IMG/VR virus record: IMGVR_UViG_2872158770_000007
Length of the DNA stretch: 29,095 nt
Direction: 5' to 3' (one strand)
Source: a virus
Taxonomy: Duplodnaviria > Heunggongvirae > Uroviricota > Caudoviricetes
This document shows, one piece after another, positions 4,449-29,095 of the stretch; position 1 is the stretch's first letter, and each line of letters begins with the position of its first letter. Made by a program: the position numbers and the translations under genes. The notes beneath the pieces are model-generated. The model was not told where the DNA came from and made no database searches. It saw only the letters and a list, made by a program, of their open reading frames with translations.

Positions 4449-9399
<4,951 letters not shown>

Positions 9400-14645: not shown

Positions 14646-17297
14646 TTATTTATTATTTAATAGCTGTTGTACTAAATCTTTTAGCTGATTAATTTCTTCT
14701 TGTTGGGCTTGAATAGCTCCCATCAAGTCCATCACTATTGGATTTAAATCAACACGTGGATGATCACGAGTGACAATCTCCCCTTCTATTTCAACTGTTT
14801 CTTCATCATGCTTAATGTACTGCGGAGCAGTCAACTCAGCATCTTCGGCGATAACACCAAACCTAACCCTTTCTTGTTCATCATCCTTGTAGATAAACGT
14901 TACTAAATCTTGTGACATTATCCGATCTAATGCTTCAACTGGATTTGCTGGAGTTATGTCTCTTTTAAACTCACGACCTGATGTACCTTGAGCTTGCATT
15001 ACTAACCATCCAAACCATGTTGTACCGTTCCCGCCTCGTACTCTTAAAGTACCACCACCGTCTATCTGAAGCTGAGAGCGATTTGCCCCTGGGTATCTTT
15101 GCATGTGCAATAAAGGGGAATATTTTTCACTATAGTTAATACCTGAGTCACCTGGCCCTGCATACATACCGTTAAAGGTGATGGTATTGGCATCTGTCGG
15201 TCCCGAAACAGCGGTATTAGTCATCCATCCTGATTGAACATCAGTTAGGATCGTTCCAGTCGGCCCTTTTAGCCCCCATAGTTTATCCTCTGCACCATTT
15301 TCAGAAATAAAAAGGGTGAGATCAGCCTGTCCAGTCTGTCCCATCGTTTTACCAACCCGAAAACCACCAGATATTTCAGTTGATGTACCAATGTTGCATA
15401 TCGAACGAATACGCCCTCCAGTTACATAACTACCAATTGCCGTAGAGGAAGGGGAAGAAGCAATAACATCCCATTGAGGACTAACTGAAGTACGACTACT
15501 CAGCAAGTTTTCAACCCAGCGTTTGGTAGTCGCGTCAGAATCAGAGACAGGATCTCCTGCTAAAGAAGTTGCACCCGTAGGACGAATCGCAGGCCATAAC
15601 TCAGCCTGAGTCTTAACACCAGTACCGCCCTGCGGAATTGCTAATGCTTTCCAGCCAGTGAAAGCACCCGCAATATATGTAGCTGAACCCCATTGCCCTC
15701 CATCATAAACCACTAATGCAGCGGAAGAATCAGCGGATTTAATAGTTGTTAAATTACTACCTTGATTAAAGCGATCCACCTGAAAGTTTAGGCGAGCACT
15801 CAAAGCATCTGTAGCCCCTGTCCCCCCCTGACCTATACCTAAAGCAATCCATCCAGTACCAGTACTTGCACCCCATGCCCCGTTATCCTGAATTCGGATA
15901 CGGTTAGTCAGGTCATTACTCATCAGATCGGTGTACGTAGCACCCTGAGTCAAACGGTTCACCTGTAGGTTAGTACGTGCTGTAGAGAGACTGGATAGAT
16001 CAGAAAGGTTACTCGCTTTCTTCATGGAAGCGGAATCAAGGGAAGTAATACTGTCAGCTAAAGCCGTTACCTCTGCATCTACTTCATCCATTGAGTAAAC
16101 AGCAAGGTTAATACGTGCTTCTTCCACGTCCCCCAGATCACTTAGATTACCTGCTATCGTAAGCTGGGCATCATCTGTAACCTTCCCTAAGCCAACATCA
16201 GTACTGGTAAGTACTACATCCTCACTGAGTACATGACCGTTGACCATACGTGTATCAGGTACTGAACCTGTATCTTCACTACTCAGTACTACATTTTCAC
16301 TAAGTACATGACCGTTCACTGTACGCGTGTCAGGTACTGAACCTGTATCTTCACTACTCAGTACTATATCTTCACTGAGTACATGACCATTAACTGTCCG
16401 TGTATCTGGTACAGAGCCGGTATCAGTACTGGTAAGTACTACATCCTCACTTAGAGGCTTACCATTCACAGTACGTGTATCAGGTACTGAACCTGTATCT
16501 TCACTGTTCAGTACTAAATTGGCCGTGAGTGCATGGCCGTTGATGGTACGTGTAAGGGGTACGTATCGCCCGTCCATCTGTGTAGCGGTATATATGCGTG
16601 TCCAGGCGGTTGTAGCGTTCTTTGCATAGATACTTAGAGTACCCGTCTTTGTCATCGCAAGAGAACTTACAGTAGTGCCATCTACAAGCCCTACTCCCAT
16701 CAGATCCGCCCCGGCAGGATTGCCTGCTTGAGATGATGGTACTTTGATGAAGCTGTTACCCGTAGGTACTGATGGTGAGTACTGAGGTACATCCGTAGTG
16801 TTCGAACCTAAACCGTAGTCCCCCTGATAGATTGGCGATAGTGCGTTAATGGTCATTGCACGTGCGATCACATCATGTGGGGCAAAACTGTATGCCTTGG
16901 TTACTACTGAACCTTTATCACCGTCCAACTTATAAGAGGTGATATAACCATTCACCATCGCATAAGTAATGGTATTTTCATCCTTATTCATCTGGTACTG
17001 AATGATGATCTGGAAAAGCTGCTGAGACTTAGCGGCATTATCCAAGAATTGATGTGTAGGATCATCAGGTAGGTAGTTAACTACAATATCAAATGGTGCT
17101 ACTGATTTATCAGATAGTAGTACTGTCCTGTAATCACTATCATACGTTTCAAAATTATTTGCTTCTGAATTTATTGTTAAGGTTGGAAAAGTATTAATCT
17201 GTTTAATTACTACATTGCCTGCTCCCTGTGGTGTTCTGTTACCAATATCAGCATTATACTGTACTGATAATTCTCTTCCTGAGAAAATATCACTCAT
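14646..17297 (-). CDS. tail-tube-domain protein fused to a repeat-containing fibre with C-terminal intramolecular chaperone (peptidase S74-like) domain
   Basis: 883 aa. Residues 1-150 align with the 157-aa tail tube protein (DIFSG..L.V, NTF.T, VNYLPDD..HQ.L, GDK..VVTK). Five tandem 25-aa repeats (PDTRTVNGHVLSEDVVLSSEDTGSV). Phage-fibre motifs GQGGTGATDALSARLNFQV and PQGGTGVKT. C-terminus SGREFKRDITP...RFGVIAEDAEL...QEEINQLKDL resembles the self-cleaving chaperone of tail fibres and endosialidases. Confidence 0.6.
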   Translation of the reverse strand: MSDIFSGRELSVQYNADIGNRTPQGAGNVVIKQINTFPTLTINSEANNFETYDSDYRTVLLSDKSVAPFDIVVNYLPDDPTHQFLDNAAKSQQLFQIIIQYQMNKDENTITYAMVNGYITSYKLDGDKGSVVTKAYSFAPHDVIARAMTINALSPIYQGDYGLGSNTTDVPQYSPSVPTGNSFIKVPSSQAGNPAGADLMGVGLVDGTTVSSLAMTKTGTLSIYAKNATTAWTRIYTATQMDGRYVPLTRTINGHALTANLVLNSEDTGSVPDTRTVNGKPLSEDVVLTSTDTGSVPDTRTVNGHVLSEDIVLSSEDTGSVPDTRTVNGHVLSENVVLSSEDTGSVPDTRMVNGHVLSEDVVLTSTDVGLGKVTDDAQLTIAGNLSDLGDVEEARINLAVYSMDEVDAEVTALADSITSLDSASMKKASNLSDLSSLSTARTNLQVNRLTQGATYTDLMSNDLTNRIRIQDNGAWGASTGTGWIALGIGQGGTGATDALSARLNFQVDRFNQGSNLTTIKSADSSAALVVYDGGQWGSATYIAGAFTGWKALAIPQGGTGVKTQAELWPAIRPTGATSLAGDPVSDSDATTKRWVENLLSSRTSVSPQWDVIASSPSSTAIGSYVTGGRIRSICNIGTSTEISGGFRVGKTMGQTGQADLTLFISENGAEDKLWGLKGPTGTILTDVQSGWMTNTAVSGPTDANTITFNGMYAGPGDSGINYSEKYSPLLHMQRYPGANRSQLQIDGGGTLRVRGGNGTTWFGWLVMQAQGTSGREFKRDITPANPVEALDRIMSQDLVTFIYKDDEQERVRFGVIAEDAELTAPQYIKHDEETVEIEGEIVTRDHPRVDLNPIVMDLMGAIQAQQEEINQLKDLVQQLLNNK
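16180..16560. repeat. tandem 75-bp direct repeats (about 5 copies) inside the fibre gene
   Basis: The unit tcaggtactgaacctgtatcttcact... recurs at 16255, 16330, (variant) 16405 and 16480. It encodes the 25-aa protein repeat. Confidence 0.85.
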
Positions 17298-18045: not shown

Positions 18046-23388
<5,343 letters not shown>

Positions 23389-23796
23389 TAGACTGGCCCC
23401 CTGAATCTCCAGACAACCAGTATCACTTAAATAAGTGATAGTCTTAATACTAGTTTTTAGACTAGTCATTGGAGTACAGATGATTGATGTCTTAGGGCCG
23501 GAGAAACGCAGACGGCGTACCACACAGGAAAAGATCGCAATTGTTCAGCAGAGCTTTGAACCGGGGATGACGGTCTCCCTCGTTGCCCGGCAACATGGTG
23601 TAGCAGCCAGCCAGTTATTTCTCTGGCGTAAGCAATACCAGGAAGGAAGTCTTACTGCTGTGGCCGCCGGAGAACAGGTTGTTCCTGCCTCTGAACTTGC
23701 TGCCGCCATGAAGCAGATTAAAGAACTCCAGAGCCTGCTCGGCAAGAAAACGATGGAAAATGAACTCCTCAAAGAAGCCGTTGAATATGGACGGGC

Positions 23797-26181
<2,385 letters not shown>

Positions 26182-26326
26182 ATGCGGTGCGGGTATGATC
26201 ATTTTGTTCACACACAATTGATTAAACCCGCTGCCGAAAACCCTCGATAGTACCGCCAGTATGGAGGGACCCATTGAATGCAATGGTTAATATACTTTGT
26301 AAGCTATATACAATGAATCATGAGTA

Positions 26327-26629
26327 TCAAAGCCGCTTACATTTAATATCATCGTACAAAGTTCCTTCTTTGTTTAGATATCTCGAACCGTAATTATATC
26401 CATCATCAAATGCTTCATTGGTTATTACCAGTTCCCTGTAAAATTTCTCATCAGGTGCTGTTTCATAATGAAATGCACCATAAGGCGGCGGCATTTTACC
26501 GAGATATCTTGTAACGTAGAAACTCATGTCAGTACTAAATGAATCGTTATGAATATCCCAGCATTTAAAGTCTGGAATAGCTGCACTTGTTGTTAAAGGT
26601 AATAATAATAGCAATATCAATTTTTCCAT
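26327..26629 (-). CDS. small secreted protein (signal peptide MEKLILLLLLPLTTSAA)
   Basis: ATG at 26629 gives a classic signal peptide; the track's upstream start is TTG. Mature protein about 80 aa with three Cys. Confidence 0.45.
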   Translation of the reverse strand: MEKLILLLLLPLTTSAAIPDFKCWDIHNDSFSTDMSFYVTRYLGKMPPPYGAFHYETAPDEKFYRELVITNEAFDDGYNYGSRYLNKEGTLYDDIKCKRL

Positions 26630-26848
26630 AAGAGATACCAATGCAAATGATTTAATTGCATGATAACACCTACAAAGTCTCAATACCAATTAACAAGCGA
26701 TATGGCTGATTTTGTTTCAATTACGTAAAATAATTTAAAATATCGTTAATTAAAACAATTGTGATGAAATGCTCACCTTGTAATTTGTTGCGTATTTGAT
26801 GAAAGTACTTACCCTTCATCAAATACACATTTCTTTAGTACTTGCCCT

Positions 26849-27289
26849 TTACTTGATAAGCAAACTATAGAATTTTCTTGTCTGCTCAACTGCAACGACA
26901 AAACAGCCAATTGCAAAACATGCTCTCAACCCACCATCCCCGCCGTGTAATGACATTGCGGTAGTGAATATAAAATTAGTCACCAAGAAAGTAATAGCCA
27001 TATACAAGATGAAATATAGAAATGAGAAAATGCGGCAAAGTATATTACTGCTTTTAATATCAAATATCTTTGCAAATACTTTCGTTAGTGGTGAAAAAAG
27101 CATAGCAATAAAACCAGGAACTACAGTTAGTAAGAATATCATTACTAACATTAAAGGTACTTTAACGTATTCATAACCACTAACACGAGTTAAAATAAGT
27201 ACTCCGACGATACCTGTTATTAAGCCACCGATTAGTAGTTCTTTAGTTCCTGCAAACATTTCAGAGATATTATCGACTGTAATTTTCAT
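26849..27289 (-). CDS. integral membrane protein, about 4 transmembrane segments
   Basis: 146 aa with four hydrophobic stretches (LLIGGLITGIVGVLIL, LMLVMIFLLTVVPGFIAMLF, IFSFLYFILYMAITFLVTNFIF, ACFAIGCFVVAV). Confidence 0.45.
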   Translation of the reverse strand: MKITVDNISEMFAGTKELLIGGLITGIVGVLILTRVSGYEYVKVPLMLVMIFLLTVVPGFIAMLFSPLTKVFAKIFDIKSSNILCRIFSFLYFILYMAITFLVTNFIFTTAMSLHGGDGGLRACFAIGCFVVAVEQTRKFYSLLIK

Positions 27290-27394
27290 TCTACTAACTA
27301 TTCCTTCATAAAAAGTTCACTCCGATCTTATCACCGCATAAAGAAAAAGCCCTGTAGATTCTCACCATACAGCCTAAGCACTAAACTTTTCGGA

Positions 27395-27664
27395 TTACTT
27401 CGATACTACCTGCCATTGTCCATCATGCCGGATGATCTCATACTGGTACTTACCATCACACCGTACATCAATACGTCCTGTACCATTCTCAGTACTATCC
27501 ATAGTCACCATATCGCATGGGTACTTACCCTTGATTAGTGACTGTGCGAAATCCATAGCGTTCTGGTTCTCATTGTCCGTGTACTGTGGCTGGGGTGCAT
27601 CCTCACCTGCAATGTTGAAGAGTACCCCAGCCAGTACTAACAAAATCACCATTACCTTTCCCAT
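27395..27664 (-). CDS. small exported protein
   Basis: 89 aa. N-terminal hydrophobic signal-like segment VMVILLVLAGVLFNIAG, then a polar domain with two Cys. Confidence 0.45.
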   Translation of the reverse strand: MGKVMVILLVLAGVLFNIAGEDAPQPQYTDNENQNAMDFAQSLIKGKYPCDMVTMDSTENGTGRIDVRCDGKYQYEIIRHDGQWQVVSK

Positions 27665-27671
27665 ACGTACC

Positions 27672-28034
27672 CTATAGATTGTCGAGGATATGGGATGGTG
27701 AATTGACCCCTTCTAACCAATCGTGAACACTATCGGTCTGATGTGGTACTACCTTACTTACATGCTCTCTATAGGGATGTAGTTCAGCAATGCGGGAATC
27801 TCGTATGAGGCATCCAGTACTTGTATTGTCATCATGATAGATCTTGTTATAGATGCGACCGCAATCACTCTGGAACTGAGGACGGTAGTACTTCACCCCA
27901 TTACGTGTTCCTGCATCAAACAGTACTACGGCCTTGTCATCTACATAGCCAACGTAAGCTTTATCCATGAAGCTGTGCGTAGTAGTACATCCAGTACTAA
28001 GGGCAATCAGTAACCCAATTAGTAATTTTTTCAT
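27672..28034 (-). CDS. putative lipoprotein
   Basis: MKKLLIGLLIALSTGC: positively charged n-region, hydrophobic core, lipobox-like STGC. 120 aa. Confidence 0.5.
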   Translation of the reverse strand: MKKLLIGLLIALSTGCTTTHSFMDKAYVGYVDDKAVVLFDAGTRNGVKYYRPQFQSDCGRIYNKIYHDDNTSTGCLIRDSRIAELHPYREHVSKVVPHQTDSVHDWLEGVNSPSHILDNL

Positions 28035-28039
28035 TATTG

Positions 28040-28591
28040 TTATCCTATTAATTTTTCACATTGCTCAAAACGCATTGGCCTGAACTCTCCCTGTACCGCC
28101 CATACACCGGCCTCTCTGAGAATTGGGTAATACGTTTTATCTCTGACGGGTACGATCACCTTCTCGCAGTACTGGCGAATGCTTTTTATGAGTACTGGAA
28201 AGATCAGACGGTCAATGTTCTCTTCTGTGTACCTTCTATTTAATCGGGCAACCTCGAAATCACCTGTAACCAGAGGAATAGCAGAACCACCATGTACACC
28301 GAGATCATCAAGCCACTGCTGGTTATGTACTTTCATATCCCTTGTCATCTGCCGAAGGAATGGTAAGTACTCGTATGGTTCACCACGGCCAGTAGTAATC
28401 ACACAATACAAACCGTTATCCCTGAACCATGCCGCCTTGCTTTCAATAAGCATTAGTTGCCCATGAAGTACTTCTTCTTCCCATAGGCCGATCTGCCTGA
28501 TTCCCTCGCGTTCTACATGGCTGACCAACTCAACCCCCAGCAACTGACCACCCAAACTTGTTATCGGTATTGCCCAATTATCAATGTTCAT
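28040..28591 (-). CDS. degenerate EAL-like domain protein (YdiV-like?), function uncertain
   Basis: 183 aa. QLLGVELVSHVEREG resembles the EAL/EVL motif region of degenerate EAL proteins. DDLGVHGGSAIPL sits where active EAL domains have DDFGTGYSSL. C-terminal AVQGEF is where QGY would be. Too short for a complete catalytic EAL domain. Confidence 0.3.
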   Translation of the reverse strand: MNIDNWAIPITSLGGQLLGVELVSHVEREGIRQIGLWEEEVLHGQLMLIESKAAWFRDNGLYCVITTGRGEPYEYLPFLRQMTRDMKVHNQQWLDDLGVHGGSAIPLVTGDFEVARLNRRYTEENIDRLIFPVLIKSIRQYCEKVIVPVRDKTYYPILREAGVWAVQGEFRPMRFEQCEKLIG

Positions 28592-28742
28592 AACTTTGCT
28601 CGTTACGCTTTAAGTTATTGATAATTGATCATTTTTAAAACATTGGCAATTAAATCGATCAATTTTATTGATCATTACAATAGAATTAATCATTCAAAGT
28701 GGTAAACAAAGGGGTGCTGGATTTTTGGGAAACTGACTGCAA

Positions 28743-28762
28743 TACTGTACATATATACAGTA
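28743..28762 (+). promoter_or_regulatory. LexA (SOS) box TACTGTACATATATACAGTA, 21 bp upstream of the ATG at 28784
   Basis: CTGT-N8-ACAG with an AT-rich spacer, 19/20 match to the enterobacterial consensus TACTGTATATATATACAGTA. Followed by AGGAGG (28771-28776) and the ATG. Confidence 0.8.
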
Positions 28763-28783
28763 ATACATAGAGGAGGGTAACAA

Positions 28784-29095
28784 ATGAGCAAAGACGGCTA
28801 TGATCCATCCATTACGCGAGGGGTTCAGAAGTTCTCACATAACGGTCGCTGGGCAACCGTGTGTTATTGGGGATCTGCACTAACAGAATTTCATTATGGG
28901 GATAGGGTATTCTTCCAGAATCAGTACAGGGAATACTGGTTAGGTACTATAGAGAGAGATTGTTTTGTACTTACCTGTGAAACACCACTAATAAGTGTTA
29001 TTGATGGGTTAGCATATCTATCTGCTGAGTACCGGATGAATCAAAGCAGTGAAGAAGGTGATTGGTTCTGTGATCAGGGGGAACTACCCTTCTGA
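28784..29095 (+). CDS. SOS-regulated small protein of unknown function
   Basis: 103-aa ORF with a strong RBS and a LexA box overlapping its promoter. No motif recognised. Stop at the window end. Confidence 0.5.
   Translation: MSKDGYDPSITRGVQKFSHNGRWATVCYWGSALTEFHYGDRVFFQNQYREYWLGTIERDCFVLTCETPLISVIDGLAYLSAEYRMNQSSEEGDWFCDQGELPF

What the first reader, a model, noticed from the sequence alone, without database searches (positions are those of the whole stretch)
28040..28591. Short degenerate EAL-like protein next to the SOS-controlled gene
The protein retains EAL-family landmarks in altered form (GVELVSH for the EAL motif region, DDLGVHGGS for DDFGTGYSS) but is too short for catalysis. Degenerate EAL proteins act as protein-binding regulators (the YdiV type antagonises FlhDC). 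A prophage-borne version could reprogram host motility or c-di-GMP signalling. The assignment is tentative.
Basis: inference. Interest (0 to 1): 0.4.

Follow-up and report, generated by a model that had tools for sequence, protein, structure and literature searches.

The report
Prophage-borne shortened STM1697-like dead EAL protein
A defective prophage in a Shigella sonnei / E. coli chromosome carries a small, catalytically dead relative of Salmonella STM1697, a protein that switches off flagella by binding the master regulator FlhD, so this is probably a phage-delivered motility brake, which I did not find described in the literature I could search.

Summary
The ORF is real: 28040..28591, minus strand, 183 aa, with both quoted motifs at the stated places. 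Pfam's EAL model does not match it at all. It is nevertheless clearly an EAL-fold protein. Sequence search against the PDB finds only STM1697 (5hxg, E=4.6e-25). A profile-profile comparison with longer relatives, of which 34 of 43 aligned sequences match Pfam EAL, gives 99.95% probability. An AlphaFold model (pLDDT 91) superposes on STM1697 at TM 0.84, on YdiV at 0.81-0.83, and on active EAL enzymes at 0.6-0.73.

It keeps only 4 of about 12 catalytic, metal or substrate residues. It is about 50 residues shorter because three internal segments are deleted, including two outer helices of the barrel.

Nine of the 11 STM1697 residues that contact FlhD can be aligned. Five are identical and three conservative, and they lie in the most conserved block of the family.

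The gene evolves under purifying selection (dN/dS 0.14-0.19). It is rare and sits in a variable cargo slot of one siphovirus-type prophage lineage of Enterobacteriaceae.

Best reading: a phage-carried anti-FlhD4C2 factor. The homology is shown; the function is inferred. In non-motile S. sonnei it is probably idle, and it is often interrupted there.

The parts
28040..28591 (-). Coding sequence (stop codon included) of the 183-aa stand-alone, degenerate, shortened EAL-fold protein
   Evidence: ORF. STM1697 homology at E=4.6e-25. Model with pLDDT 91.3. TM 0.84 to 5hxg_A. dN/dS 0.14-0.19.
28517..28537 (-). GVELVSH, residues 19-25: remnant of the EAL motif. The Glu (E21) is kept; the Arg of EALxR is replaced by His25.
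   Evidence: Translation; alignments.
28283..28309 (-). DDLGVHGGS, residues 95-103: remnant of the DDFGTGYSS motif, with both Asp kept
   Evidence: Translation; alignments.
28169..28231 (-). YTEENIDRLIFPVLIKSIRQY, residues 121-141: the block equivalent to STM1697 F160-Y180, which carries the core FlhD contacts. It lies within the most conserved stretch of the family.
   Evidence: Translation. Contact residues from PMC5622320 mapped through the alignments. Lowest-entropy 25-residue windows start at residues 116-125.
28621..28649 (-). Sigma-70-like promoter candidate for the EAL-like gene: TTGCCA, 17 nt, AATTAT
   Evidence: Consensus scan. Only 2 promoter-like sites were found in the scanned region against 4.6 expected, so this is a candidate and not evidence of function.
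28617..28693 (-). Cluster of four AT(G/T)AT(C/T)AAT motifs with three GATC sites in the upstream region. It includes an invariant AAAAATGATCAATTATCAAT element about 25-45 bp before the ATG. It travels with the EAL-like gene.
   Evidence: Motif search. Intergenic alignment of six loci. Absent from the intergenic region of a relative that lacks the EAL-like gene.
27672..28034 (-). Downstream 120-aa predicted lipoprotein (MKKLLIGLLIALSTGC...), starting 5 bp after the EAL-like stop codon. Probably co-transcribed, and part of the same cargo cassette in several relatives.
   Evidence: ORF. No family hits. A 120-aa gene follows the EAL-like gene in L001 and L004.
28743..28762 (+). LexA box. This is context: it belongs to the divergent neighbour, not to the EAL-like gene.
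   Evidence: 1 mismatch to the consensus, 0.01 expected by chance. Conserved in related loci. It stays with the 103-aa gene where the EAL-like gene is absent.
28784..29095 (+). Divergent 103-aa gene of unknown function (phrog_2100), presumably SOS-controlled. Context only.
   Evidence: It occurs without the EAL-like gene in L017 and L019-L021.

Best explanation
The gene encodes a stand-alone EAL-fold protein that has lost c-di-GMP phosphodiesterase chemistry. It belongs to the same branch as Salmonella STM1697, an EAL-like protein that binds the FlhD subunit of the flagellar master activator FlhD4C2. The proposed mechanism is as follows. The protein uses the conserved surface formed by helix 119-125 (Y121), R128 and helix 131-139 (V133, L134, K136, Y141), together with L97 and V108, to dock onto FlhD. 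Class II flagellar promoters are then no longer activated, so the lysogen makes fewer flagella and is less motile. STM1697 achieves this by blocking RNA polymerase recruitment, and YdiV by releasing FlhD4C2 from DNA. Which of the two modes applies here is unknown. The gene is accessory cargo in a variable slot between an SOS-controlled gene and the packaging genes of one lineage of siphovirus-type prophages of Enterobacteriaceae. What is shown: the homology, the fold, the loss of catalytic residues, the purifying selection, and the prophage-cargo status. What is inferred: FlhD binding, motility repression, and any benefit to the phage or lysogen, such as less flagellin exposure or protection from flagellum-dependent phages. 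In this window's host, S. sonnei, whose flhDC operon was lost through IS activity, the gene probably has no target.
For: Homology. phmmer against PDB sequences finds only STM1697 (5hxg_A), at E=4.6e-25. The family profile gives E=1.4e-28. In an exhaustive HMMER search of 1.84 billion representatives, the best long-form hit is a 235-aa STM1697-type protein at 2.2e-24. hhalign of the short family against the long family gives 99.95% probability, E=6.9e-38. 34 of the 43 aligned sequences match Pfam EAL.

Fold. The AlphaFold model has pLDDT 91.3 and pTM 0.87. Foldseek gives 5hxg_A at E=5.5e-17, TM 0.84, rmsd 2.9; YdiV 3tlq at TM 0.81-0.83; the YdiV-FlhD complex 4es4 at 0.76; and active EALs at 0.6-0.73.

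Dead active site. R25->H, N->T66, ExxE->M82/D85, K->R116, D->N118 and EGVE->P148/R150. Only E21, D95, D96 and Q167 are kept.

FlhD interface. STM1697's contacts are V115, L116, L136, V147, F160, K167, L172, L173, K175, H176 and Y180. The mutants F160A/L173A and L172A/L173A/H176A lose FlhD binding (PMC5622320). In the query these positions are L97, V108, Y121, R128, V133, L134, K136, S137 and Y141. That is 5 identical, 3 conservative and 1 changed, and both basic salt-bridge partners are kept. These positions are more conserved than random sets of positions in the family (p=0.006), and the lowest-entropy 25-residue windows (starting at residues 116-125) overlap the block 121-141.

Selection. 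dN/dS is 0.14-0.19.

Cargo status. Synteny is the same in L001-L007 and L010-L011. Related phages carry the 103-aa gene and terminase without the EAL-like gene.

Background. STM1697 and YdiV neither bind nor hydrolyse c-di-GMP, and both repress motility through FlhD.
Against: There is no experimental or complex-model evidence for FlhD binding here. Two of the 11 STM1697 contacts (V115, L116) lie in a helix that the short family has deleted, and H176, which is part of a triple mutant that loses binding, is Ser or Asn here. The conserved block 116-148 is also well conserved in the wider EAL-like family (FPVLIK.I..YC in the consensus), so its conservation could be structural rather than partner-specific. 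In the more divergent short forms the enrichment is weak (p=0.07). YdiV-type proteins also have other partners, such as Fur through SlyD. The window's host lineage lacks a functional flhDC (PMC7373316), and the gene is interrupted after codon 82 in many S. sonnei genomes. The time of expression, lysogen or lytic cycle, is unknown.
Confidence: 0.6

Rival explanations
1. It is a dead EAL scaffold that binds a partner other than FlhD. The partner could be another host transcription factor (as with YdiV-SlyD-Fur) or a phage protein, so the phenotype would not be motility.
For: The deletions remove a helix that supplies two FlhD contacts in STM1697, and H176 is replaced. [quoted passage not shown] The gene is kept intact on 307 contigs named S. 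sonnei or E. coli, and Shigella has lost flhDC.
Against: The central hydrophobic plugs (F160->Y121, L173->L134) and both basic contacts (K167->R128, K175->K136) are conserved. Every named genus that carries the gene other than Shigella (Lelliottia, Enterobacter, Escherichia, Scandinavium) belongs to the Enterobacteriaceae, most of which are flagellated (from general knowledge, not tested here). The many interrupted alleles in S. sonnei fit loss of use there.
Confidence: 0.25
2. It is a c-di-GMP phosphodiesterase, or a c-di-GMP receptor of the FimX/LapD kind, that reprograms c-di-GMP signalling in the host.
For: The fold is an EAL fold, and E21, D95, D96 and Q167 are retained. There is a weak NCBIfam hit to PdeH (E=2.7e-5).
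Against: The catalytic Lys, the metal-binding Asn and Asp, the ExxE pair and both Glu of EGVE are substituted, and the Arg of EALxR that contacts the nucleotide is His. Pfam EAL does not match at E<=10. The closest relatives, STM1697 and YdiV, neither bind nor hydrolyse c-di-GMP. Two helices flanking the active-site side of the barrel are missing.
Confidence: 0.05
3. It is a decaying, functionless remnant of an EAL gene carried along in a defective prophage.
For: The prophage is defective: IS2 is inserted in terL and a second IS3-family element lies in the tail module. The protein is shortened and has lost its catalytic residues. IS-type interruption after codon 82 is common in S. sonnei.
Against: The shortened form is a conserved family of 181-193 aa found in several genera, with dN/dS 0.14-0.19. 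The model is compact and confident (pLDDT 91). The gene occurs in apparently intact prophages with an uninterrupted terminase.
Confidence: 0.07

Closest known systems
STM1697 of Salmonella Typhimurium (PDB 5hxg; EAL-like anti-FlhD4C2 factor)
   Same: It is the closest solved relative by sequence (E=4.6e-25; 30% identity in the Foldseek structural alignment) and by predicted fold (TM 0.84). Both are stand-alone EAL-like domains with a degenerate active site. Five of the 11 FlhD-contact residues are identical and three conservative, including the central F160/L173 equivalents.
   Different: The window protein is 183 aa against 235 aa. Three internal deletions (6+4, 12 and 16 residues) remove two outer helices, one of which carries the contacts V115/L116, and the C-terminal tail is also missing. 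H176 is Ser. K-x-D is R-x-N here, whereas STM1697 keeps K-L-D. DD is kept here, whereas STM1697 has GD. This gene is prophage cargo, while the STM1697 papers I read do not mention phage. FlhD binding is untested.
YdiV / RflP / STM1344 (PDB 3tlq, 4es4)
   Same: A stand-alone EAL-like protein that is catalytically inactive, binds no c-di-GMP and binds FlhD. The predicted fold matches at TM 0.81-0.83.
   Different: There is no detectable sequence hit in the PDB search, and identity in the structural alignment is 17-18%. The key YdiV interface residues (F155, F168, F181, A184) differ from those of STM1697. YdiV displaces FlhD4C2 from DNA at high stoichiometry.
Canonical EAL c-di-GMP phosphodiesterases (Pfam PF00563), e.g. 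PdeH/YhjH, RocR, YahA
   Same: The same fold superfamily (TM 0.6-0.73). There are remnants of the EAL, DDFG and QG motifs. The weak NCBIfam hit is to PdeH.
   Different: There is no Pfam match. Only 4 of about 12 catalytic, metal or substrate residues are retained. The protein is about 50-70 residues shorter.
Plasmid-borne catalytically inactive EAL-only proteins of E. coli (Romling 2023 review, PMC10333796)
   Same: Horizontally transferred stand-alone EAL-like proteins in E. coli and its relatives.
   Different: The plasmid genes share only 20-33% identity with this protein, and only 4 of the 33 matching records cover 80% or more of it. This protein is on a prophage, not a plasmid. The same review lists only a GGDEF-only protein and a riboswitch as phage-borne c-di-GMP elements.
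Other prophage-encoded regulators that lower motility (e.g. AppY of DLP12, PchE of EHEC prophages)
   Same: Prophage genes that act on the FlhDC regulon (titles and abstracts).
   Different: Those are DNA-binding transcription factors. This protein would act after translation, by binding the FlhD protein.

Membership tests
EAL domain c-di-GMP phosphodiesterases (Pfam PF00563) | Match to the family profile above its curated threshold | tested here: not met
   Pfam gives 0 families at E<=10. NCBIfam PdeH gives 23.6 bits against a cut-off of 190. Homology is shown only indirectly: 34 of the 43 aligned sequences match PF00563, and hhalign gives 99.95%.
EAL domain c-di-GMP phosphodiesterases (Pfam PF00563) | EAL-type (beta/alpha) barrel fold | tested here: met
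   The model has pLDDT 91.3. 96 PDB chains match at E<=0.001, and every one of the 50 listed is an EAL-domain or EAL-like protein. The barrel is reduced: the helices between strands 62-65/79-83 and 79-83/92-97 are replaced by loops.
EAL domain c-di-GMP phosphodiesterases (Pfam PF00563) | Catalytic, metal- and substrate-binding residues: E and R of EALxR, N, ExxE, DD, KxD, EGVE, Q (set taken from established EAL enzymology such as RocR and BlrP1, recalled from memory) | tested here: not met
   Only E21, D95, D96 and Q167 are kept. The substitutions are R->H25, N->T66, E/E->M82/D85, K->R116, D->N118 and E/E->P148/R150.
EAL domain c-di-GMP phosphodiesterases (Pfam PF00563) | Hydrolysis or binding of c-di-GMP | not testable with these tools
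   This needs a biochemical assay. It is predicted to be negative, from the residue losses and from the behaviour of STM1697 and YdiV.
Stand-alone EAL-like anti-FlhD4C2 factors (STM1697, YdiV/RflP) | Significant homology to a characterised member | tested here: met
   STM1697 at E=4.6e-25 with the single sequence and 1.4e-28 with the profile. TM 0.84 to 5hxg_A and 0.81-0.83 to YdiV.
Stand-alone EAL-like anti-FlhD4C2 factors (STM1697, YdiV/RflP) | Single EAL-like domain with no sensor, GGDEF or membrane domain | tested here: met
   The 183 aa are entirely covered by the EAL-like alignment and by one compact predicted domain.
Stand-alone EAL-like anti-FlhD4C2 factors (STM1697, YdiV/RflP) | Conservation of the FlhD-contact residues defined in the 5hxg complex | tested here: inconclusive
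   Of 11 contacts, 5 are identical, 3 conservative, 1 changed (H176->S) and 2 deleted with their helix. The alignable positions are more conserved than random in the close family (p=0.006) but only weakly so in the divergent short forms (p=0.07).
Stand-alone EAL-like anti-FlhD4C2 factors (STM1697, YdiV/RflP) | Full-size domain of about 235 aa with the complete set of outer helices | tested here: not met
   183 aa. Deletions of 6+4, 12 and 16 residues plus the C-terminal tail, relative to the long form.
Stand-alone EAL-like anti-FlhD4C2 factors (STM1697, YdiV/RflP) | Physical binding to FlhD and repression of class II flagellar genes and motility | not testable with these tools
Pull-down and motility assays are needed.
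Prophage accessory (moron-like) cargo gene | Located inside a prophage, and present or absent among otherwise syntenic relatives | tested here: met
   The window carries terminase, portal, capsid and tail genes. The EAL-like gene lies in the same position in L001-L007 and L010-L011. In L019-L021 the 103-aa gene and terminase are present without it. Six IMG/VR viral contigs carry it.
Prophage accessory (moron-like) cargo gene | Own promoter and terminator, with expression from the repressed prophage | tested here: inconclusive
   There is a promoter-like site at 28649-28621 and a conserved upstream element that travels with the gene. No terminator-like site was found in 27300-29095. Expression could not be tested.

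The most novel reading that the evidence does not exclude
A lineage of temperate phages of Enterobacteriaceae has captured an STM1697-type protein and trimmed it to a minimal EAL barrel lacking two outer helices. It may use this protein on a target other than, or additional to, FlhD, so that the dead EAL scaffold has been retargeted by the phage. Expression might be set by the unusual upstream region, which is rich in GATC sites and contains an IHF-consensus-like sequence.
Probability: 0.2. Interest if true: 0.65.

Novelty: new variant of a known kind. Interest (0 to 1): 0.42.

Why it matters
EAL-like proteins that have given up c-di-GMP chemistry and instead bind FlhD are known as chromosomal regulators in Salmonella and E. 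coli. They help Salmonella hide flagellin inside host cells. E. coli is reported to have only one of the two, YdiV.

A phage-carried version closest to STM1697 would mean that temperate phages can install an extra post-translational brake on the flagellar master regulator in E. coli, Enterobacter, Lelliottia and related bacteria. That could affect motility, flagellin exposure, and sensitivity to flagellum-dependent phages.

In the literature I could search, no phage-borne member of this class is described. A 2023 review lists only a GGDEF-only protein and a riboswitch as phage-borne c-di-GMP elements. No viral protein in the BFVD fold library resembles the model.

The shortened barrel also shows how much of an EAL domain can be removed while it still folds, at least in prediction, and stays under selection. 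This bears on how enzyme folds become pure binding modules.

The practical interest of this particular copy is limited, because its host, S. sonnei, has no functional flhDC.

Tried and rejected
- Pfam and PHROGs scans of the protein gave nothing useful. Pfam returned no family, and PHROGs returned one unknown-function family at E=4e-4.
- A first AlphaFold run used only the 14 close homologues. It gave a poor model: pLDDT 69.6, with residues 69-112 below 50. I replaced it with a run on a 43-sequence alignment that includes the long forms.
- I asked whether the 103-aa LexA-controlled neighbour and the EAL-like gene form an obligatory functional pair, for example a regulatory switch. I rejected this. 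The 103-aa gene with its LexA box occurs directly next to terS, or beside other genes, without the EAL-like gene.
- I asked whether LexA directly controls the EAL-like gene. This is not supported. The box is about 150 bp from its ATG and about 94 bp beyond the candidate -35, and it stays with the neighbour when the EAL-like gene is absent.
- The 103-aa neighbour and the four small downstream proteins have no Pfam, NCBIfam or PDB matches, and their homologues are all 'hypothetical'.
- DNA and protein searches of GenBank phages found only a 2175-bp Salmonella record at 31% identity, which looks STM1697-like.
- BFVD gave no match at E<=0.001.
- The cassette is not a compositional island within the prophage. 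The whole element is AT-rich, at 34-50% GC per kb.
Full report
**Observation**

The window contains an ATG-started ORF at 28040..28591 on the minus strand, 183 aa. GVELVSH is residues 19-25 (28517-28537) and DDLGVHGGS is residues 95-103 (28283-28309).

The gene is real. A word-indexed search of 5.8 billion proteins returned 15 proteins at E<=0.001. Fourteen of them align over at least 99% of the query, are 169-191 aa long and share 50-100% identity with it; they are named from Shigella sonnei, E. coli, Lelliottia amnigena and Enterobacter kobei. The fifteenth is a 101-aa fragment. Pairwise dN/dS against three homologues is 0.14-0.19. The exact protein occurs on 307 contigs named S. sonnei or E. 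coli, the longest 4.98 Mb, so the window is very probably S. sonnei chromosome.

**Is it an EAL protein?**

The direct test gives a negative answer that is misleading.
- Pfam finds nothing, even at E<=10.
- NCBIfam gives only a sub-threshold hit of the C-terminal half to PdeH/YhjH: E=2.7e-5, 23.6 bits against a cut-off of 190.
- phmmer against all PDB sequences finds exactly one protein, STM1697 of Salmonella (5hxg_A), at E=4.6e-25 in two stretches. A profile of the 14 close homologues raises this to 1.4e-28.
- An exhaustive HMMER search of 1.84 billion cluster representatives with that profile finds only 56 proteins at E<=0.001. These are a handful of short forms (181-200 aa) and a set of 218-246-aa proteins, led by a 235-aa STM1697-type sequence at 2.2e-24.
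- Of a 43-sequence alignment of short and long forms, 34 sequences match Pfam EAL (best 1.6e-23), but the query does not.
- hhalign of the short family against the long family gives 99.95% probability, E=6.9e-38.

**Predicted structure**

A first AlphaFold run on the shallow alignment was poor in the middle of the protein: pLDDT 69.6, with residues 69-112 below 50. With the 43-sequence alignment the model is confident, at pLDDT 91.3 and pTM 0.87.

Foldseek against the PDB gives:
- the STM1697-FlhD complex chain first (E=5.5e-17, TM 0.84, rmsd 2.9);
- then YdiV (3tlq, TM 0.81-0.83) and the YdiV-FlhD complex (4es4, TM 0.76);
- then dozens of genuine EAL phosphodiesterases and receptors at TM 0.6-0.73.

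The protein is therefore an EAL-fold protein on the STM1697 branch.

**Why it is short, and why it cannot be an enzyme**

The alignments place three internal deletions relative to the long forms:
- 6+4 residues after the N-terminal hairpin;
- 12 residues after the strand YCVITT;
- 16 residues after the strand LRQMT.

An 11-residue C-terminal tail is also missing. In the model the strands 62-65, 79-83 and 92-97 are all present, but the helices that normally follow the first two are replaced by loops. The barrel strands are kept and two outer helices are lost. More distant short forms (P0019, P0029, P0041) keep parts of these helices, so the reduction looks stepwise.

For the active site I used the residue set known from EAL enzymology (recalled from memory: E and R of EALxR, N, ExxE, DD, KxD, EGVE, Q). 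The long relatives show E.L.R / N / EISE / DDFGSG / KIDK / EGVE / QGY. The query shows E21, H25 / T66 / M82, D85 / D95, D96 / R116, N118 / P148, R150 / Q167. The catalytic lysine, most metal ligands and the nucleotide-binding arginine are gone. The published relatives STM1697 and YdiV neither bind nor hydrolyse c-di-GMP (PMC5622320; PMC10333796). A role in c-di-GMP turnover or sensing is unlikely.

**What it most likely does**

The STM1697-FlhD crystal structure paper lists eleven contact residues: V115, L116, L136, V147, F160, K167, L172, L173, K175, H176 and Y180. It shows that F160A/L173A and L172A/L173A/H176A abolish FlhD binding, motility repression and the virulence effects. The residue letters at those indices in the HMMER alignment match the paper, so the numbering is consistent.

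The equivalents in the query are L97, V108, Y121, R128, V133, L134, K136, S137 and Y141.
- Five are identical: L136, V147, L173, K175, Y180.
- Three are conservative: F160Y, K167R, L172V.
- One is changed: H176S.
- V115 and L116 fall in the deleted helix.

Both residues described as the centre of the interface (F160, L173) and both lysines that form salt bridges to FlhD are kept in kind. Within the 14-member family these nine positions are more conserved than random sets of nine (p=0.006). The lowest-entropy 25-residue windows of the protein start at residues 116-125, and so overlap the contact block 121-141.

I therefore propose that the protein docks on FlhD and prevents FlhD4C2 from activating class II flagellar promoters.

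This step is inferred, not shown.
- The block is also conserved in the wider family, so its conservation could be structural.
- The enrichment is weak in the divergent short forms (p=0.07).
- Part of the interface is missing.
- I could not model the complex.

**Genomic setting**

The window is a siphovirus-type prophage. It carries tail fibre J, tape measure, major head-protease, portal, and lambda-type small and large terminase subunits. It is defective: IS2 splits the large terminase gene, and a second IS3-family element lies in the tail module.

The EAL-like gene is the first gene of a short leftward unit. It is followed 5 bp later by a predicted lipoprotein and then by three small secreted or membrane proteins with no family matches. 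It is transcribed divergently from a 103-aa gene (phrog_2100). That gene's ATG is preceded by a near-perfect LexA box at 28743-28762, with 1 mismatch and 0.01 matches expected by chance.

The same arrangement recurs in Lelliottia, in gut-metagenome and Logan contigs, in E. coli (a 169-aa variant) and in Scandinavium. The order is: serine recombinase, early genes, 103-105-aa gene with LexA box, EAL-like gene, variable small genes, an oppositely oriented 186-190-aa gene, terS, terL, portal.

The pair is not obligatory. In L019 and L020 the 103-aa gene and its LexA box face terS directly. In L021 other small genes fill the gap. In L017 the 103-aa homologue sits next to a resolvase. The EAL-like gene is therefore cargo in a variable slot, not part of the phage's core circuitry, and LexA control applies to the neighbour.

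The EAL-like gene brings its own upstream region. This holds a sigma-70-like candidate promoter (28649-28621) and a cluster of AT(G/T)ATCAAT motifs with three to four GATC sites. It also holds an invariant AAAAATGATCAATTATCAAT element 25-45 bp before the ATG. That element is absent where the gene is absent.

**Distribution and prior knowledge**

The short form is rare.
- 2 of 185,579 GTDB species representatives carry it: Enterobacter chinensis and Scandinavium lactucae.
- 6 IMG/VR viral contigs carry it.
- 1 of 5,426 complete E. coli genomes carries a related gene, annotated 'hypothetical protein'.
- No sequenced phage in GenBank carries it, apart from a 2175-bp Salmonella record that looks STM1697-like.
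- Plasmids carry only distant relatives, at 20-33% identity.
- No viral protein in BFVD resembles the model at E<=0.001.

On the literature side, a 2023 review states that E. coli has only YdiV and that inactive EAL-only proteins occur on plasmids. It also states that few c-di-GMP elements are known on phages, namely a GGDEF-only protein and a riboswitch. Full-text searches combining prophage, EAL-like and FlhDC/FlhD4C2 found no paper describing a phage-borne member. Prophage regulators that lower motility are known, but those listed (AppY, PchE) are transcription factors.

**Host caveat**

Shigella species have lost flhDC through IS activity (PMC7373316), so in this window's host the proposed target is missing. 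The gene is also interrupted after codon 82 in many S. sonnei genomes. An 88-aa product occurs on 125 contigs. There are 80-81-aa contig-end fragments. A 101-aa C-terminal fragment exists that one source already calls 'EAL domain-containing protein, partial'.

**Verdict**

The closest relative is STM1697 rather than YdiV. The Pfam negative is a false negative. Residue loss, not length alone, rules out catalysis.

It is a new variant of a known kind: a prophage-borne, helix-trimmed member of the stand-alone EAL-like group of FlhD binders.

| Claim | Probability |
|---|---|
| Homology and dead-enzyme status | about 0.95 or higher |
| Anti-FlhD4C2 function | about 0.55-0.6 |
| A different binding partner | about 0.25 |
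| c-di-GMP enzyme or receptor | about 0.05 |
| Functionless relic, for the family as a whole | about 0.07 |

Interest is moderate, at 0.42.

Noticed in passing
window 28743-28762 and 28784-29095 (+): A near-consensus LexA box lies 21 bp upstream of a 103-aa gene of unknown function (phrog_2100). Box and gene stay together in relatives across several genera, including contexts without the EAL-like gene and one non-phage-like context next to a resolvase. The position suggests an SOS-induced antirepressor-type gene, but no family, PDB or named homologue supports any function.
   Followed up: partly
window 28617-28693 (- strand); alignment A4 of six loci: The upstream region of the EAL-like gene holds four AT(G/T)AT(C/T)AAT motifs with three GATC (Dam) sites in about 80 bp. 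It also holds an invariant AAAAATGATCAATTATCAAT-N-A-N-TTA element, which contains TATCAA-N4-TTA. By my reading that fits the IHF consensus WATCAANNNNTTR. The cluster is absent from relatives that lack the EAL-like gene. It could be an operator, an IHF site or a Dam-sensitive control region. This is unexplained.
   Followed up: partly
window approx. 23380-24740 (transposase ORF 23803-24708 +), splitting terL fragments 24679-25122 and 21888-23348: An IS2 (IS3-family) element, 98.8-99.3% identical to E. coli IS2 copies, is inserted in the large terminase gene, so the prophage cannot package DNA.
   Followed up: yes
window 7399-8603 (-): A second IS3-family transposase (phrog_157, E=1.5e-124), with an upstream small ORF, sits inside the tail module next to the tail-fibre J-like gene (4449-7469). 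This is further evidence of prophage decay, typical of Shigella.
   Followed up: partly
S. sonnei alleles of window 28040-28591 (proteins P0072, P0073, P0074, P0014): In many S. sonnei genomes the EAL-like gene is interrupted after codon 82. There is an 88-aa product ending in a foreign CQRHDV tail on 125 contigs, there are contig-end fragments of 80-81 aa, and there is a separate 101-aa C-terminal fragment annotated 'EAL domain-containing protein, partial'. An IS insertion is the likely cause, but I did not examine the junction sequence.
   Followed up: partly
window 26327-28034 (-): Four small genes follow the EAL-like gene: a 120-aa lipoprotein with an LSTGC lipobox, an 89-aa protein with a signal peptide, a 146-aa protein with several membrane segments, and a 120-aa protein with a signal peptide. 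None matches Pfam, PHROGs or NCBIfam. They may be envelope-directed cargo or superinfection-exclusion genes.
   Followed up: partly
loci L001-L007 and L019-L021 compared with window 25561-28783: The stretch between the LexA-controlled gene and terS is a variable cargo slot in this prophage lineage. It is empty in some relatives. In others it holds the EAL-like gene plus a lipoprotein, a DUF3800 protein, or other small genes.
   Followed up: yes
window 14646-17297 (-): An 883-aa protein combines an N-terminal major-tail-protein match (phrog_158, residues 2-150) with long C-terminal tail-fibre-like regions (several PHROGs, residues about 240-880). That is an unusually large decorated tail-tube protein, or a fusion.
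   Followed up: no
whole window: The prophage is AT-rich throughout, at 34-50% GC per kb. The highest values are in the IS elements. This is well below the roughly 51% I recall for E. coli and Shigella chromosomes, which suggests a donor lineage of different composition or H-NS-silenced DNA.
   Followed up: no
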